A DNA stretch of 64,000 bases, taken from an uncultured Candidatus Poseidoniales archaeon. Lineage in GTDB: Archaea > Thermoplasmatota > Poseidoniia > Poseidoniales > Thalassarchaeaceae. The stretch lies in NCBI GenBank assembly GCA_963968165.1, contig CAXAFE010000005.1, positions 24,047 to 88,046 of the forward strand, given 5' to 3'. A model generated the notes under the pieces. It was not told the origin of the DNA and searched no databases. It worked only from the letters and a program-made list of their open reading frames with translations. Below are positions 23,537-27,611 of the stretch, piece by piece (the stretch's first letter is position 1; the number at the start of each line of letters is the position of its first letter). Made by a program: the position numbers and the translations under genes.

Positions 23537-23621
23537 CGCACACTACAACAGGTCTTTGACTACATCGGAAGAATACTTCTTCAGGGGAGAGGTTCATTTC
23601 ATATTGGCTCAACCGAAGCAT

Positions 23622-24233
23622 GTGATTAACATCGGACTAGTGATGCTCCAGGGTGCAAGGCACGTCCATATCAGTGCCCTGCATGAAGCTTCATATAATT
23701 CTAAAATTGATGTTGATATCATAGAATTAAGAACCTCTGCCGATCTTGAGTCATCAAAAATTGATGGATTAATAATGCCCGGTGGCGAATCAACAACTAT
23801 GCGTTTAATGGGTAATTCTGATATTTCAGGGCTAATGCCTCCCTTGCTGAAATTTATCCGTGAAAATCCGAAAATGCCAGTCATGGGTACATGTGCAGGA
23901 GCTATAATAATGGCCGATCCTCAAGACGGAAAAAGTCCCCTTGTTGATGCATCAATCAGTAGGAATGCATATGGCCGCCAGACAAATTCATTTGAAGCAA
24001 TGATATACTCTTCATTATTAAAAAGAAGTTTCCCAGGAATTTTCATAAGGGCCCCAAAATTTCAATCCATTGGTAATGATACTTATGCAATAGCGAACTA
24101 TGATGAACAAATAGTTGGAGTAAAAAAAACGAATAGGATAGCATTATCATTCCATCCAGAATTATCACAGGATACGGGATTTCATCAATGGATATTGGAA
24201 CAAGCCAAGACATATGCAGGGGTAACAAAATGA
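23622..24233 (+). CDS. pdxT: Pyridoxal 5'-phosphate synthase glutaminase subunit PdxT
   Basis: IGLVMLQGARHVH, nucleophile GTCAG, FHPEL. Start placed at GTG 23622; the track start 23556 adds a non-homologous extension. No pdxS adjacent. Confidence 0.8.
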   Translation: MINIGLVMLQGARHVHISALHEASYNSKIDVDIIELRTSADLESSKIDGLIMPGGESTTMRLMGNSDISGLMPPLLKFIRENPKMPVMGTCAGAIIMADPQDGKSPLVDASISRNAYGRQTNSFEAMIYSSLLKRSFPGIFIRAPKFQSIGNDTYAIANYDEQIVGVKKTNRIALSFHPELSQDTGFHQWILEQAKTYAGVTK

Positions 24234-25375
24234 TCCACCAACTAAGATTACCACAAGTTCCAACGCTACATGAAGCGCCCGAAATTACAGATACCGAAGG
24301 TTGTCTACAATGCCAATTGGGCAGTAAATTAGTATTATTCATTACAGGGCATTGCCATTGGCAGTGTGATTATTGTCCCCTCTCTGAAACTAGGAGAGAG
24401 ATAGATTGGATGTATGCAAACGAGCGAAAGTGCGAAAACTTCGACGAGGTAATAGAAGAAGCAAAAGCGATGCGTGCTACGGGTGCAGGCATTACGGGAG
24501 GAGATCCTCTGATGGCCAGGGAGCGGACTATAGAGGGAATTAGAAGACTCAAGGATGAATTTGGTCCGAATTTTCATTTACATATGTATACTAGTATTCC
24601 TTTCAATGTTAAGTATGCAAAAGATTTTGCAGACGCAGGTCTAGATGAAATAAGGTTTCATTTTCTCAAATTAGATGCTGCAAAGTATAAGGAGACTATT
24701 ACGGCATGCCATAAAGCTGGAATTCTAACTGGAGTAGAGTTACCTTGTGAACCTGATAAAGAATCAGAATTACTAAATTTATTGGATGAATTGAGAACTT
24801 TTGATATATCATTTATGAATGTAAATGAATTGGAAATAACTGTTGGAAATCACGGTAATATGGAATTAAGAGGATTTAATCTTTCATCAGGAATAACAGC
24901 AGGCGCTAATGGTTCGGCAGAATTAGCTACAATGATGAGGAATAGAATCAATTCAGCAGAAATTGGAATACCTGATCCAATTGATAATTTAATCAGGAAA
25001 CCATATGGTTATAGTCTAAAATTTTGTACCGCTGTTTACAAGGACGCTGGACAACTTCGACGACGCTTCCTCCGTCGTGGTGAGGCAACCATTGCTCCTC
25101 ATGAAACATTGACAGAAGACGGTACCTTAATTTTCGGTGCGATTTATTCCGTAGAGGATGAACAAGAATCTTGGATTTCAGAAATAATGGATGAGACCAA
25201 TTTACCACGAAGATTTTTATTCTGGGACAAAGAAAACTCCAGGATAGAACTGCCCTTAATTGTTGCAGAGTCAATAGCAGGAGAAGTAGAAGCTCCAGTA
25301 TCACTAGTTGAAGTTTTACCGACCTTTGAAAGAATTGAAATGTCAATAATTTGGCTGAATGAATTCCCAAGATAA
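24230..25375 (+). CDS. Radical SAM protein (PflA-related, uncharacterised subfamily)
   Basis: CHWQCDYC = CxxxCxxC cluster motif. ATG 24230 overlaps the pdxT stop (ATGA). Confidence 0.75.
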   Translation: MIHQLRLPQVPTLHEAPEITDTEGCLQCQLGSKLVLFITGHCHWQCDYCPLSETRREIDWMYANERKCENFDEVIEEAKAMRATGAGITGGDPLMARERTIEGIRRLKDEFGPNFHLHMYTSIPFNVKYAKDFADAGLDEIRFHFLKLDAAKYKETITACHKAGILTGVELPCEPDKESELLNLLDELRTFDISFMNVNELEITVGNHGNMELRGFNLSSGITAGANGSAELATMMRNRINSAEIGIPDPIDNLIRKPYGYSLKFCTAVYKDAGQLRRRFLRRGEATIAPHETLTEDGTLIFGAIYSVEDEQESWISEIMDETNLPRRFLFWDKENSRIELPLIVAESIAGEVEAPVSLVEVLPTFERIEMSIIWLNEFPR

Positions 25376-25423
25376 GATATTTTTTGAACACATTCATAGA
25401 GTTTAACACATGAAGGGATTATA

Positions 25424-27262
25424 TTGCCGGTCAGAAAAGCCAACTTAGAAAATTCGAAAGTTAGCCCATTTCGTAGATTGTCAGCGTCACAAGTTATTGC
25501 ATGGAATAATTGTCCAAGATTGTGGTACTATGGTTGGAGAGAACGTCTAAAATCTCCACTTCCACCACAAATTATCAGAGGCAATGCAGTTGAAGAATGT
25601 ATTTGCAGAGTATTAAGAGATTCTCCAGTCTTCTTATATCATGATTCTGATATAGACATGAAATCACCGTTACTCGAGGATGGTTCTCCCGCTTTAGATG
25701 ATAATTCAGGATGGATTGGGCCAACTTTATTGCCATTACCCAGCACTAAATGGCCAAAAAATAGATTAGAATTAGATGAATGGTCCCAAGGAAGAGCCAC
25801 ATATCACTTCAACGGTTGTTGGGAGAGGGCTACTCATGAATGGGAATCCAATCCAAACAGAAAAGGAAACTCATCTGATATCGACCCAAAAGAGGGAATG
25901 TCCATGGTCCTATCTGGTTTGAAATTACACTTAGATGAATTGGAAAAGTGTGTTTCCGAAGGTGGAGGAAAAGATTTCCTAAAGTGGAGGAGAGGAAAAA
26001 ATAGGAATATATGGCCCTCTCCAGATGGCTTCCCGAGAGTATTCGACATTCCAAATCCAGCTGTATCGAAGGGTAATATTTCATGGACTGAAGCGTGGGA
26101 ATATGCTAGACCATGGTTTGTCGATCCGGACGCAAAATCTTTTTCACAAACTAGTTCTCATCCTGAGGAATGGTTCCAAGGCGAATATGATTTGGTATAT
26201 CGATGGACAGGTAAACCAAATATTGTGGACTTAAAAGCATCTATAGGCAAGGGAGATAGATCTGCAGGATATCTTGAACAACTCCGTCTCTATGCATGGC
26301 TGTGGTGGGAAACGCACAATCGTCTAGAAGAAGTTGATAATCTTGAAATATGGTATCTCGGAACCGGAACCTCAAAGAAAGTCAAGACTCCTGATAAAGC
26401 AGAAATGATGAATTTAAGTATCGAATTAAAAGAATTATATGATTTAATTCATGCAAAAAATCCTGATATTTCAGATTGTCCACCATCTCCCTCTCCATTA
26501 AATATATTCAATGAAGGCGGAAATCCTGCAAATCCTCCAATCGATGATACTCCACAATCTAGGTGTAAAAAATGCGAGGTCAAGGCTGTATGTGAAGGTA
26601 GTGATTATGAGAATAATCTTCCTAATATGGATAGAATAGAACGTTTTGGGCATGCATGGCCTGTGACTCCATTGGGTGATTTGAAAACTAGATTCACGGT
26701 AATGGGAGAAGTAATTCATTTGAAAGGTCCTGAATTTGGTAATAATAATTCCATAGTTTTATCTTTCACCCTTCAAAATGGCTATGATCGTGCTTCAGTG
26801 AGATCACATAGAAATGGAGGCCCAACAAGAGTATCTCGTCAAATTTCTGAGGGAGTTTGGGTCCGTATTGATAATGCCCTTGCATCATTATGGAAAGGTC
26901 AATTAGTGATAGACATGGATGAAATATCAAAATTATCAGTTGTAAAAGAATCTTCTGACCATTCGATTGTAGAAGTTGAAACGCGAGCGACTGTCGTCGG
27001 GAGAGTTTGGTCCATTAACGCATTTCCCGATGGTAAAGGCATTAGGAGGTGGGCAATATCCTTAGTGGATAAATCAGGATCAGGAGGGGCAGTTGCGTTT
27101 AAGCAATTTATTCCAAATTCTGCTGCTGCAATTCAAAGGGGTGATGAAATTGCTATTCTTAATGGAGAGTCCGGTGAATTCGCAGGTAGACCCCAAATAA
27201 GAATAGGGCCAGGTACTCGAGTTGTAATATTAAAAGACTCAGATGACTTAATTCCCTTTTAG
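25424..27262 (+). CDS. Cas4/EXO5-family PD-(D/E)XK nuclease with 4Fe-4S Cys set, fused to two C-terminal OB-fold domains
   Basis: SASQVIAWNNCPRLWYYGW (N-terminal Cys motif); EYDLV ... IVDLKAS (D...DxK); YLEQLRLYAWLW (QxxxY); CKKCEVKAVC (Cx2Cx5C). Residues ~420-505 and ~518-603 look like OB folds (ATVVGRVWSINAF...WAISLVDKSGSGGAVAFKQF...GDEIAILNG). TTG start. Confidence 0.65.
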   Translation: MPVRKANLENSKVSPFRRLSASQVIAWNNCPRLWYYGWRERLKSPLPPQIIRGNAVEECICRVLRDSPVFLYHDSDIDMKSPLLEDGSPALDDNSGWIGPTLLPLPSTKWPKNRLELDEWSQGRATYHFNGCWERATHEWESNPNRKGNSSDIDPKEGMSMVLSGLKLHLDELEKCVSEGGGKDFLKWRRGKNRNIWPSPDGFPRVFDIPNPAVSKGNISWTEAWEYARPWFVDPDAKSFSQTSSHPEEWFQGEYDLVYRWTGKPNIVDLKASIGKGDRSAGYLEQLRLYAWLWWETHNRLEEVDNLEIWYLGTGTSKKVKTPDKAEMMNLSIELKELYDLIHAKNPDISDCPPSPSPLNIFNEGGNPANPPIDDTPQSRCKKCEVKAVCEGSDYENNLPNMDRIERFGHAWPVTPLGDLKTRFTVMGEVIHLKGPEFGNNNSIVLSFTLQNGYDRASVRSHRNGGPTRVSRQISEGVWVRIDNALASLWKGQLVIDMDEISKLSVVKESSDHSIVEVETRATVVGRVWSINAFPDGKGIRRWAISLVDKSGSGGAVAFKQFIPNSAAAIQRGDEIAILNGESGEFAGRPQIRIGPGTRVVILKDSDDLIPF

Positions 27263-27270
27263 TGAATTAA

Positions 27271-27355
27271 GGCGCCGAGAGAGGGATTTGAACCCCCGAG
27301 TCCAAAGGACAATGGATTTCGAATCCATCGCAATACCGGGCTATGCGATCTCGGC
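27271..27355 (-). tRNA. tRNA-Ser (anticodon CGA)
   Basis: Hand-folded cloverleaf: acceptor GCCGAGA/TCTCGGC, anticodon arm ATGGA-TTCGAAA-TCCAT, long variable arm with GTCC/GGAC stem, T arm GGGGG-TTCAAAT-CCCTC, discriminator G; CC follows in the genome. Confidence 0.85.
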
Positions 27356-27410: not shown

Positions 27411-27611
27411 ATGAAGATACAAGTAACAAGCGAAGGTAAGATTTTAATCGTGGAATCCGAGACTCCCATAACAGTGAATGAAGTATTAAAGAAATTAGAG
27501 ATTTCTCCTTCGACTGTACTCGCAGTCTTTGATGGAACCATTATTCCCCATACTTCTTTGATAGAATCTGATTTAAGTATTGAATTAGTAATTGTTTCTT
27601 CTGGTGGTTAA
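27411..27611 (+). CDS. ThiS/MoaD-type ubiquitin-like small protein ending in Gly-Gly (SAMP-like)
   Basis: 66 aa; C-terminus ...LVIVSSGG-stop; beta-grasp-like alternating pattern. Confidence 0.6.
   Translation: MKIQVTSEGKILIVESETPITVNEVLKKLEISPSTVLAVFDGTIIPHTSLIESDLSIELVIVSSGG

What the first reader, a model, noticed from the sequence alone, without database searches (positions are those of the whole stretch)
25424..27262. Cas4/EXO5-type Fe-S nuclease fused to tandem OB folds, with no CRISPR context
The N-terminal ~395 aa carry the full PD-(D/E)XK Cas4/EXO5 motif set: NNCPRLWYYGW with the N-terminal Cys, EYDLV, IVDLKAS, YLEQLRLYAWLW, and the Cx2Cx5C triad CKKCEVKAVC. A ~190-aa insertion separates motif I from the catalytic core. 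The C-terminal ~200 aa look like two RPA-like OB folds (nt ~26681-26939 and ~26978-27233). No cas genes or CRISPR array exist in the window. An Fe-S end-processing nuclease covalently joined to two ssDNA-binding modules suggests a self-contained ssDNA end or flap resection enzyme, in repair or anti-mobile-element defence. It lies directly beside a tRNA-Ser gene.
Basis: partly seen in the sequence, partly recalled or inferred. Interest (0 to 1): 0.6.

Follow-up and report, generated by a model that had tools for sequence, protein, structure and literature searches.

The report
Iron-sulfur nuclease fused to RPA-like domains
This is a real, conserved housekeeping gene of the abundant ocean archaea Marine Group II that joins a Cas4/Dna2-type iron-sulfur DNA-cutting domain to two single-strand-DNA-binding modules; it is not a CRISPR or defence gene, no member has been studied, and its exact repair or replication role is still open.

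Summary
ORF 25424-27262 (+, 612 aa, TTG start) has three parts:
- a PD-(D/E)XK nuclease with all RecB/Cas4 catalytic motifs and the 1+3 cysteine "iron staple";
- a conserved ~190-aa insertion;
- two C-terminal RPA-type OB folds (AlphaFold pLDDT 88.6; Foldseek and profile matches to RPA).

Independent metagenome assemblies span the fusion, so it is not a chimera.

Full-length copies occur in 63 of 64 sampled Poseidoniales genomes. None occur elsewhere in the phylum or on viral contigs. Most genera carry two tandem paralogs (A and B) downstream of ABCE1. The window's clade kept only B, moved it next to tRNA-Ser, and added a bacterial-SSB-like acidic tip ending in Phe.

Cas1 is almost absent from the order, and the neighbours are housekeeping genes, so the defence reading is not supported.

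The order lacks Mre11, Rad50 and NurA but keeps RadA and RPA. This genome also encodes an AddAB-like helicase-nuclease, the likelier main end-resection machine.

Best reading: a motor-less, Dna2/EXO5-like nuclease for single-stranded DNA ends or flaps, with a built-in RPA-like DNA grip. It is a new domain architecture made of known parts. Interest is moderate.

The parts
25424..27262 (+). Whole gene: 612-aa Fe-S PD-(D/E)XK nuclease plus tandem OB protein (paralog B type), TTG start
   Evidence: Searches show the ORF. Ortholog N-termini coincide. Pfam PDDEXK_1 scores 45.8 bits. AlphaFold gives pLDDT 88.6 and pTM 0.85.
25463..25618 (+). N-terminal helices carrying the first cluster cysteine (C30, NNCPRLWYY) and motif I (E57)
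   Evidence: C30 and E57 are invariant in A1. The family profile gives a weak match to Cas4 4R5Q here, E=0.0045.
25619..26158 (+). Family-specific ~180-aa insertion (aa 66-245): two long helices plus conserved Trp/Pro-rich loops (W120, W140, P198, P200, W225, R229-P230-W231, D234-P235)
   Evidence: Invariant columns. High pLDDT; helices 114-141 and 155-178.
26159..26458 (+). Catalytic core (aa 246-345): motif II D256 (EYDLV), motif III D269-x-K271 (VDLKAS), motif IV Q286-x3-Y290 (QLRLY)
   Evidence: Invariant in both paralog clades. Pfam PDDEXK_1 aligns to aa 251-391. Foldseek matches Dna2, ACE1, AdnAB, RecB, Cas4, MGME1 and EXO5.
26564..26593 (+). Cys triad C381-x2-C384-x5-C390, which together with C30 forms the 1+3 'iron staple' ligand set
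   Evidence: C381 and C384 are invariant. C390 is conserved in all B-type proteins. Cluster binding itself was not tested.
26633..26944 (+). OB fold 1 (aa 404-507), RPA-like; conserved aromatic-x-Gly (W493) before the last strand
   Evidence: DSSP strands. Foldseek tandem-OB hits. Weak profile hit to the Ta0387 OB protein. The profile matches the host RPA repeats.
26984..27235 (+). OB fold 2 (aa 521-604), homologous to archaeal RPA OB domains; conserved aromatics F560 and F586
   Evidence: The profile matches Replication factor A 8AA9 at E=6e-9 and Sulfolobus SSB at E=1e-3. Pfam tRNA_anti-codon scores 19.6 bits. Match to the genome's own RPA.
27236..27259 (+). C-terminal acidic tip ending in Phe (…DSDDLIPF), resembling the bacterial SSB C-terminal tip
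   Evidence: 121 of 121 close homologs end in F or Y, and 111 of 121 have at least 2 acidic residues in the last 7. The tip is absent from distant two-copy-type representatives. The resemblance to SSB-Ct rests on my own knowledge.
27271..27355 (-). tRNA-Ser(CGA), a convergent neighbour; conserved synteny marker of the single-copy clade, not a functional part
   Evidence: The same arrangement appears in 13 loci from single-copy genera.

Best explanation
**Proposal.** The gene encodes a lineage-specific (order Poseidoniales), vertically inherited housekeeping DNA nuclease. Its N-terminal domain is a RecB/Cas4/Dna2-type PD-(D/E)XK nuclease stapled by a four-cysteine Fe-S cluster and enlarged by a family-specific insertion. 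Its C-terminal half is a pair of RPA-derived OB folds. I propose that the OB pair binds single-stranded DNA and feeds a free end or flap into the nuclease site, so the protein acts as a motor-less Dna2/EXO5-like processor of ssDNA ends or flaps. It would trim RPA-covered tails, long flaps or gaps during replication and recombinational repair.

**Paralogs.** In most of the order it works beside, and probably in complex with, a sister paralog A. In the window's clade A was lost, and B gained an SSB-like acidic C-terminal tip. That tip probably recruits partners or folds back on its own OB groove.

**Shown here:**
- the domain architecture;
- conservation of the catalytic and cysteine residues;
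- order-wide vertical inheritance;
- RPA homology of the OB folds;
- absence of any CRISPR or defence link.

**Inferred, not shown:** Fe-S binding, ssDNA substrate, polarity, A/B complex formation, the function of the tip, and the pathway.
For: **Architecture and residues**
- Pfam PDDEXK_1 is above threshold.
- C30, E57, D256, D269, K271, Q286, Y290, C381 and C384 are invariant across both paralog clades down to 26% identity.
- The model is confident and compact: pLDDT 88.6, pTM 0.85.
- The nuclease part matches Dna2 best (5EAN, probability 0.99, 412 columns). ACE1, AdnAB, RecB, Cas4, MGME1 and EXO5 follow; by established knowledge these act on DNA, and several need free single-strand ends.

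**OB module**
- It matches RPA70 DBD-A/B, POT1 and Teb1 by fold.
- It matches archaeal RPA by sequence profile at E=6e-9.
- It matches the genome's own RPA repeats.

**Distribution and context**
- Full-length copies are in 63 of 64 sampled Poseidoniales and 24 of 24 high-quality relatives.
- The A/B duplication predates the split of the families, and both copies keep their catalytic residues.
- Neighbours are housekeeping genes: ABCE1, PAC2 and eIF2-alpha in two-copy genomes, or pdxT, a radical SAM gene and tRNA-Ser in single-copy genomes.
- RadA is in 25 of 25 and a canonical RPA in 21 of 21 genomes, so ssDNA intermediates of recombination exist.
Against: - No biochemistry exists for any member.
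- Structural similarity of the nuclease domain to any solved protein is low (TM about 0.3; best Foldseek E=1.7e-3).
- No helicase or other repair gene is a conserved neighbour, so the pathway is unassigned.
- Neighbours in two-copy genomes are translation-related (ABCE1, eIF2-alpha, ribosomal proteins). OB folds can bind RNA, so an RNA substrate is not excluded.
- Transcription evidence is minimal: one 266-nt metatranscriptome contig at depth 2.
- A/B complex formation and the role of the acidic tip are pure inference.
Confidence: 0.6

Rival explanations
1. It is the main DNA double-strand-break end-resection nuclease of Poseidoniales: a motor-less replacement for the missing Mre11-Rad50-HerA-NurA machinery that generates 3' tails for RadA.
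For: The phyletic patterns are complementary in one 301-genome phylum sample.
- The family is in 63 of 64 Poseidoniales and has no full-length copy in the 237 others.
- Mre11/SbcD is in 217 of 237 others but gives only 2 weak hits in 64 Poseidoniales.
- NurA is in 76 of 237 others and 0 of 64 Poseidoniales.
- No Rad50 is detectable: the Zn hook is in 0 of 41 genomes, and AAA_23 hits only SMC.
- RadA is present in 25 of 25 genomes.
Against: - This genome encodes an AddB-like/AddA-like helicase-nuclease pair (UvrD helicase plus two PD-(D/E)XK nuclease domains), the classical bacterial resection machine.
- Its AddB-like subunit has 141 homolog clusters in marine archaeal MAGs. Earlier scan notes, not re-tested here, call the pair order-wide.
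- The complementarity is a single clade and therefore a single evolutionary event.
- The protein has no motor domain and no helicase neighbour.
Confidence: 0.15
2. It is a solo-Cas4-type defence or CRISPR-adaptation-related nuclease, or another anti-mobile-element factor.
For: - Cas4-like motifs and the Fe-S cysteine pattern are present.
- There are weak hits to Cas4 models: TIGR00372 at E=0.13 and PADLOC Cas4 at E=9.7e-5.
- By fold, the nuclease domain resembles ACE1 and phage RecB/Cas4-family exonucleases.
Against: - Cas1 is in 1 of 41 genomes of the order and absent from this genome.
- The window has no CRISPR-like repeats.
- The gene is universal in the order, single-locus and syntenic among housekeeping genes.
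- No PADLOC system matches.
- No relatives lie on viral contigs.
- All Cas4 model scores are far below their cut-offs.
Confidence: 0.04
3. It acts on RNA, not DNA: an RNA end-processing or decay nuclease linked to translation or ribosome quality control.
For: - In two-copy genomes the A/B pair lies directly downstream of ABCE1, sometimes overlapping it. Opposite lie PAC2, eIF2-alpha, S27e and L44e.
- The Pfam OB hit is to the 'tRNA_anti-codon' family.
- Some PD-(D/E)XK enzymes such as DXO cut RNA; DXO gives only a very weak Foldseek hit.
Against: - The OB folds match RPA/SSB much better than any RNA-binding OB: E=6e-9 to Replication factor A, plus the genome's own RPA.
- The best-scoring structural relatives of the nuclease domain are DNA enzymes.
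- By established knowledge, the 1+3 Cys iron-staple nucleases (AddB, Dna2, Cas4, EXO5) are DNA enzymes.
- The ABCE1 linkage is lost in the window's clade without loss of the gene.
Confidence: 0.1
4. It is mainly a specialised single-strand-binding (alternative RPA) protein whose nuclease domain is structural or regulatory and not catalytic.
For: - It has two RPA-like OB folds plus an SSB-like acidic C-terminal tip in the window's clade.
- A dimer would carry four OB folds.
Against: - All catalytic residues are invariant over deep divergence in both paralogs, which argues for an active enzyme.
- A canonical multi-OB RPA is present in 21 of 21 genomes.
Confidence: 0.06

Closest known systems
Dna2 nuclease-helicase (eukaryotes; PDB 5EAN, 5EAX, 5EAW)
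   Same: - It is the best structural match to the N-terminal 415 aa (Foldseek probability 0.99, 412 aligned columns).
- By my own knowledge of the Dna2 structure, Dna2 also pairs a Fe-S-stapled PD-(D/E)XK nuclease with an OB fold in the same chain, acts on RPA-coated ssDNA flaps and ends, and threads ssDNA into the nuclease.
   Different: - There is no SF1B helicase domain. The protein ends with two OB folds and an acidic tip.
- The OB folds are C-terminal and RPA-derived.
- TM-score is only about 0.3.
- Pfam Dna2 (PF08696) does not hit this protein. Paralog A scores 17.4 bits, below the 22.4 cut-off.
Cas4 / solo-Cas4 / ACE1 small Fe-S PD-(D/E)XK nucleases (PF01930, PF12705; PDB 4IC1, 4R5Q, 9IAB)
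   Same: - It has the same catalytic motifs and the 1+3 Cys pattern.
- It belongs to Pfam PF12705.
- Foldseek hits to ACE1 and Cas4 reach probability 0.9-1.0 over the core.
   Different: - It is about three times larger, with a ~190-aa insertion and two OB folds.
- It has no cas, CRISPR or Argonaute context.
- Cas4-specific models score far below their cut-offs.
Archaeal/eukaryotic RPA (Replication factor A; PDB 8AA9, 1JMC) and bacterial SSB
   Same: - The C-terminal tandem OB folds are homologous to RPA DNA-binding domains.
- The aromatic-x-Gly motif before the last strand is shared with each OB of the host RPA.
- The C-terminal acidic tip ending in Phe resembles the SSB C-terminal tip (the resemblance is from my own knowledge).
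   Different: - It is covalently fused to an apparently active nuclease.
- It lacks the Zn-ribbon region seen in the genome's canonical RPA.
- A canonical RPA is encoded separately.
AddAB / AdnAB helicase-nucleases (PDB 3U44, 4CEH, 6PPU, 7SJR)
   Same: - They contain a Fe-S-stapled RecB-like nuclease, as in AddB and the AdnAB subunits.
- They use two paralogous nuclease subunits encoded side by side, which is analogous to the A/B pair.
- Foldseek hits to AdnA/AdnB and AddB appear.
   Different: - Neither A nor B has a helicase or helicase-like domain.
- A separate, genuine AddAB-like pair exists in the same genome.
Phage RecB/Cas4-family exonucleases (e.g. Thermus virus P23-45 A7XX28; Haloarcula tailed virus HCTV-1 R4TI04)
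   Same: They are the best viral structural matches to the nuclease part (E 1e-7 to 1e-6, target TM 0.55-0.67).
   Different: - The viral proteins are about 260-280 aa without OB folds.
- No viral protein matches the full architecture (query TM at most 0.30).
- No relatives were found in IMG/VR contigs.

Membership tests
PD-(D/E)XK nuclease superfamily, Pfam PF12705 (PDDEXK_1) | Match to the family model above the gathering threshold | tested here: met
   45.8 bits against a cut-off of 22, E=9.8e-12. Orthologs score up to 61.6 bits over the full model.
RecB/Cas4/AddB/Dna2 'iron-staple' nucleases | Catalytic motifs: E (motif I), D (II), D-x-K (III) and Q-x3-Y (IV) | tested here: met
   E57, D256, D269, K271, Q286 and Y290 are invariant in 28 sequences of both paralog clades.
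RecB/Cas4/AddB/Dna2 'iron-staple' nucleases | One N-terminal Cys plus a C-terminal C-x2-C-x5-C set that binds a Fe-S cluster | tested here: inconclusive
   The pattern is present (C30, C381, C384, C390). C30, C381 and C384 are invariant. The fourth Cys is shifted in some paralog A proteins. Actual cluster binding cannot be tested in silico.
CRISPR-associated Cas4 (PF01930 / TIGR00372) | Match to Cas4-specific models above their cut-offs | tested here: not met
   PF01930 is not reported even at E<=10. TIGR00372 scores 12 bits against a cut-off of 65.
CRISPR-associated Cas4 (PF01930 / TIGR00372) | Genomic association with cas1/cas2 or a CRISPR array | tested here: not met
   Cas1 is absent from this genome and present in 1 of 41 genomes of the order. 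The window has no CRISPR-like repeats.
EXO5 (PF09810) | Match to the EXO5 family model | tested here: not met
   No PF09810 hit at E<=10. Only a weak Foldseek hit to human EXO5 7LW9 (E=0.38, probability 0.51).
Dna2 | Fe-S nuclease domain with a Dna2-like fold | tested here: inconclusive
   It is the best PDB fold match (5EAN, probability 0.99, E=1.7e-3), but query TM is only 0.32. Pfam Dna2 does not hit this protein.
Dna2 | C-terminal SF1B helicase domain | tested here: not met
   The 612-aa chain is fully accounted for by the nuclease, the insertion and two OB folds. No P-loop or helicase family hit was found.
RPA/SSB-type OB-fold ssDNA-binding domains | OB fold with sequence or structure homology to RPA DNA-binding domains, in tandem | tested here: met
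   The Foldseek top 50 are all tandem-OB proteins, including RPA70 1JMC. The profile matches Replication factor A at E=6e-9 and the genome's own RPA. Pfam tRNA_anti-codon alone is sub-threshold at 19.6 bits against 27.
RPA/SSB-type OB-fold ssDNA-binding domains | Actual ssDNA binding | not testable with these tools
   Only conserved aromatic positions (W493, F560, F586) are seen.
AddB / AdnAB subunits | Helicase or inactivated helicase domains N-terminal to the nuclease | tested here: not met
   No UvrD-type domain is present. By contrast, the genome's real AddA-like protein carries one.
Known anti-phage defence systems (PADLOC-DB) | Match to a defence-system protein model and defence-island context | tested here: not met
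   Only a weak Cas4 domain echo, E=9.7e-5 at 20.7 bits. Neighbours are purA, serC, pdxT, a radical SAM gene, tRNAs and glnA.

The most novel reading that the evidence does not exclude
The A and B nuclease-OB proteins form a previously unrecognised, helicase-less ssDNA-end processing complex specific to Poseidoniales. It would have two Fe-S nuclease sites plus four RPA-like OB folds; in the window's clade it would be a B-only version with an SSB-like recruiting tip. The complex would work on the single-stranded products of the lineage's AddAB-like enzyme. It would trim or hand over RPA-like-bound tails to RadA, as part of a hybrid bacterial/archaeal recombination pathway that replaced Mre11-Rad50-HerA-NurA in these abundant ocean archaea.
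Probability: 0.2. Interest if true: 0.75.

Novelty: new variant of a known kind. Interest (0 to 1): 0.5.

Why it matters
- **Abundance.** Poseidoniales (Marine Group II) are among the most abundant archaea of the surface ocean and are uncultured. Their genome-maintenance machinery can only be read from sequence.
- **Unusual repair toolkit.** This work shows that the order has lost the canonical archaeal Mre11-Rad50-NurA toolkit. It keeps RadA and RPA, carries a bacterial-type AddAB-like enzyme, and has an order-specific Fe-S nuclease fused to RPA-like OB folds.
- **New arrangement.** The fusion puts into one chain what eukaryotes achieve with Dna2 plus RPA. That gives a compact model for how an ssDNA-binding module delivers substrate to an iron-staple nuclease.
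- **Testable.** The protein is small enough for recombinant work, so the hypothesis can be tested directly.
- **Annotation.** Databases currently label it 'hypothetical' or a generic 'PD-(D/E)XK nuclease family protein', and a naive reader would mislabel it Cas4.

Tried and rejected
- **Single-sequence PDB search.** phmmer with the single sequence gave only chance hits. The profile search was needed.
- **Masked nuclease relatives.** Foldseek with the full model returned only OB proteins and hid the nuclease relatives. A second model of aa 1-415 was needed.
- **Genome collection scans.** The A4 alignment found nothing. The AddB-like protein also found nothing.
- **Viral contigs.** The scan found no relatives.
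- **Rad50 Zn-hook model.** It proved insensitive, ringing in only 3 of 14 controls. I therefore added AAA_23 and confirmed that its only full-length hit is SMC.
- **DUF87/HerA.** The result is ambiguous. A protein of about 830 aa occurs in Poseidoniaceae and mostly nothing in Thalassarchaeaceae. I did not pursue it.
- **NurA complementarity.** It is weaker than it first looked, because only 32% of other Thermoplasmatota have NurA.
- **RNA evidence.** One metatranscriptome holds a 266-nt fragment at depth 2. That is too little to claim expression or operon structure.
- **'Sole replacement for Mre11-Rad50-NurA'.** I considered this reading and then down-weighted it after finding the AddAB-like pair in the same genome.
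- **Third Cas4-like ORF.** I considered that the ORF on contig C21 is a 'nuclease + one OB' relative. hhalign supports only shared core motifs.
- **tRNA-Ser as integration site.** Rejected, because the arrangement is conserved vertically and the gene is universal in the order.
Full report
**1. The observation.** The window holds an uninterrupted ORF at 25424-27262 on the + strand. It is 612 aa long with a TTG start. Orthologs from a dozen related genomes begin at the same residue with MPV(R/N/S), which supports the start. A purine-rich AAGGGA lies 5 nt upstream of the TTG, and the 48-nt spacer to the preceding radical SAM gene is AT-rich. tRNA-Ser(CGA) lies 8 nt past the stop on the opposite strand. 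No CRISPR-like repeats exist in the 64 kb.

**2. Not an assembly artefact.** Contigs from independent marine metagenome studies cover the gene. A 10.1-kb contig has 0 differences across 24100-27300. From another study, an 1811-nt contig covers 25490-27300 and so spans the nuclease-OB junction.

**3. Nuclease domain.** Pfam places aa 251-391 in PDDEXK_1 (45.8 bits, cut-off 22). The OB-fold family tRNA_anti-codon hits aa 523-593 below threshold. NCBIfam gives only weak echoes of archaeal SSB/RPA and Cas4. An AlphaFold model built on a 28-sequence alignment is confident and compact (pLDDT 88.6, pTM 0.85).

A second model of aa 1-415 (pLDDT 82.7) finds these relatives:
- the Dna2 nuclease domain as best match (5EAN, probability 0.99, 412 columns, but TM only 0.32);
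- then ACE1, AdnAB, RecB, Cas4, MGME1, EXO5 and AddB.

Among viral models, the nuclease part resembles 260-280-aa phage RecB/Cas4-family exonucleases. No viral protein shares the whole architecture.

**4. OB module.** Foldseek of the full model against the PDB returns only tandem-OB proteins at E~1e-9 and probability 1.0: RPA70 DBD-A/B, POT1, Teb1 and HIN-200. A family profile hits Pyrococcus Replication factor A at E=6e-9 and Sulfolobus SSB at E=1e-3 over OB2. It also hits a Thermoplasma OB protein weakly over OB1. The OB profile matches the OB repeats of this genome's own RPA. An aromatic-x-Gly motif before the last strand is shared by OB1 (W493), OB2 (F586) and each RPA repeat.

**5. Conservation and paralogy.** C30, E57, D256, D269, K271, Q286, Y290, C381 and C384 are invariant in an alignment reaching 26% identity. 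The ~190-aa insertion is conserved too, with its own invariant Trp/Pro signature (W120, W140, P198, P200, W225, RPW229-231, DP234-235).

In most other genera a second gene of the same architecture, about 28% identical, lies immediately upstream. The order there is ABCE1, then A, then B, followed by PAC2, eIF2-alpha and ribosomal protein genes on the opposite strand. The genes often overlap by 4 nt.

A maximum-likelihood tree shows:
- an A clade (100/100) and a B clade (81/75), each containing all three families of the order, so the duplication is ancestral;
- the window's protein in a well-supported single-copy clade (100/99) nested within B.

In that clade A is gone. B also sits in a new place: pdxT, then a radical SAM gene, then B, with tRNA-Ser convergent.

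**6. The C-terminal tip.** All 121 close homologs, which form the single-copy clade, end in an aromatic residue after an acidic stretch such as …SDDLIPF or …SEDLDPF. Distant B and all A proteins lack this. From my own knowledge, it resembles the bacterial SSB C-terminal tip (…DDDIPF), which recruits partner proteins.

**7. Distribution.**
- An exhaustive HMMER scan of 1.84 billion cluster representatives finds only 160 hits.
- In a 301-genome sample of the phylum, full-length matches occur in 63 of 64 Poseidoniales and nowhere else. The other hits are weak and partial.
- IMG/VR contigs hold no relatives.
- A few distant, shorter proteins (394-477 aa, nuclease plus one OB) exist in metagenomes. 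One lies in a bacterial-looking chromosomal context with F-ATPase, MiaB, Crp and FtsEX genes.

**8. No CRISPR or defence link.**
- Cas1 is absent from this genome and found in 1 of 41 genomes of the order.
- PADLOC gives only a weak Cas4-domain echo.
- The published phylogenomics of Cas4 notes that PF12705 proteins are not CRISPR-associated. It describes helicase fusions and mentions no OB fusion (PMC5704561).
- I found no paper describing this family.

**9. Repair-gene inventory.**

| Gene | Poseidoniales | Other Thermoplasmatota |
|---|---|---|
| NurA | 0 of 64 | 76 of 237 |
| Mre11/SbcD | 2 weak hits in 64 | 217 of 237 |
| Rad50 | not detectable (Zn hook 0 of 41; AAA_23 hits only SMC, confirmed by its hinge domain) | not tested |
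| RadA | 25 of 25 | not tested |
| Canonical RPA | 21 of 21 | not tested |

The Mre11/SbcD model rings in all four archaeal control genomes. This pattern first suggested that the nuclease-OB pair substitutes for the lost resection machinery.

A motif screen of the whole genome then turned up an AddB-like gene (1191 aa, C-terminal Fe-S PD-(D/E)XK). It overlaps an AddA-like gene (1626 aa: UvrD helicase plus a C-terminal nuclease). The best NCBIfam matches are AddA and RecB, all below their cut-offs. The AddB-like protein has 141 homolog clusters in marine archaeal MAGs.

Earlier notes of this scan say the pair is order-wide. An AddAB-type enzyme is the more economical explanation for how these archaea resect breaks. 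I therefore lowered the 'main resection nuclease' reading to about 0.15.

**10. Mechanism.**

Shown:
- an apparently active RecB/Cas4/Dna2-type nuclease with an iron-staple cysteine set;
- covalent linkage to two RPA-derived OB folds in a compact predicted structure;
- strict vertical conservation in one archaeal order.

Inferred:
- The OB pair binds ssDNA and presents an end or flap to the nuclease. The protein would then behave like the nuclease half of Dna2, or like EXO5 or MGME1, with its own RPA-like grip.
- It would trim ssDNA tails, long flaps or gaps in replication and recombination.
- A and B probably act together.
- The acidic tip in the B-only clade probably mediates partner recruitment or self-regulation.

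Polarity, substrate and pathway are unknown.

Rivals:
- main resection nuclease, 0.15;
- RNA-directed nuclease, 0.10, suggested only by translation-gene neighbours;
- non-catalytic alternative SSB, 0.06;
- defence or Cas4 role, 0.04.

**11. Verdict.** The protein belongs to PF12705 and the iron-staple nuclease group. It is not a Cas4, EXO5, Dna2 or AddB family member by their defining features. Its architecture (Fe-S nuclease, family-specific insertion, tandem RPA-like OB folds, and in one clade an SSB-like tip) appears undescribed. I rate it a new variant of a known kind, built from familiar parts, in an ecologically important uncultured lineage. Interest is moderate (0.5). The boldest reading not excluded is a helicase-less A/B end-processing complex working with AddAB-like and RadA proteins. 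I give that about 0.2.

Noticed in passing
Same genome, outside the window: G000 contig C17, 10563-19015 (minus strand); held as L038:2567-11016: A bacterial-type AddB-like gene (1191 aa, C-terminal PDDEXK_1 with CRYCSVRETC) overlaps by 4 nt an AddA-like gene (1626 aa: UvrD-helicase, UvrD_C and a C-terminal PDDEXK_1). The best NCBIfam hits are addA and recB, all below their cut-offs. The AddB-like protein has 141 homolog clusters in marine archaeal MAGs.
   Followed up: partly
Order-wide (genome search): Poseidoniales lack detectable Mre11/SbcD (2 weak hits in 64 genomes, against 217 of 237 other Thermoplasmatota). They also lack NurA (0 of 64) and Rad50 (only SMC is found). They keep RadA (25 of 25) and RPA (21 of 21).
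   Followed up: yes
Same genome, G000 contig C21, 14200-15384 (minus strand); L039:2204-3385: A third iron-staple-type nuclease: a stand-alone 394-aa PDDEXK_1 protein (E=7.6e-22) with CGFCEWKPWC. Only its catalytic core aligns with the nuclease-OB family (hhalign probability 93% over 53 columns).
   Followed up: partly
window 23556-25375: pdxT, then a 395-aa radical SAM gene (CHWQCDYC; only generic MoaA, NrdG and PflA-type matches, none near any cut-off), lie directly upstream. The order pdxT, radical SAM, nuclease-OB, tRNA-Ser is conserved in all single-copy genera examined. A functional link is unknown.
   Followed up: partly
window 26158-26211: In four metagenomes, contig depth jumps about six-fold over this 54-nt stretch, which encodes HPEEWFQGEYDLVYRW. 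High-depth contigs of more abundant relatives match it with 5 differences. This is the most conserved nucleotide stretch of the family.
   Followed up: no
Metagenomic proteins P0209, P0214, P0216, P0259, P0269: These are distant shorter homologs (394-477 aa) with the same nuclease motifs plus a single OB fold. P0216 lies on a 33.5-kb contig with bacterial-type genes (F-ATPase a, c and I subunits, MiaB-like, Crp, FtsEX). They form the outgroup to the archaeal A and B clades.
   Followed up: partly
Poseidoniaceae genomes, e.g. G033:C21:14512-15357 and G026:C1:223741-224589: A protein of about 830 aa with a DUF87 (HerA/FtsK-like ATPase) domain is present in most Poseidoniaceae but mostly absent from Thalassarchaeaceae. 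It is not a canonical ~500-aa HerA.
   Followed up: no
G018:C35:950-1792: This is the only Cas1 gene found among 41 genomes of the order (E=8.4e-84), in a genome of a two-copy genus.
   Followed up: no
window 27411-27611: A 66-aa ORF ending in GG gives weak ThiS and SAMP2 matches (E~1e-3). It lies just past the tRNA-Ser.
   Followed up: no
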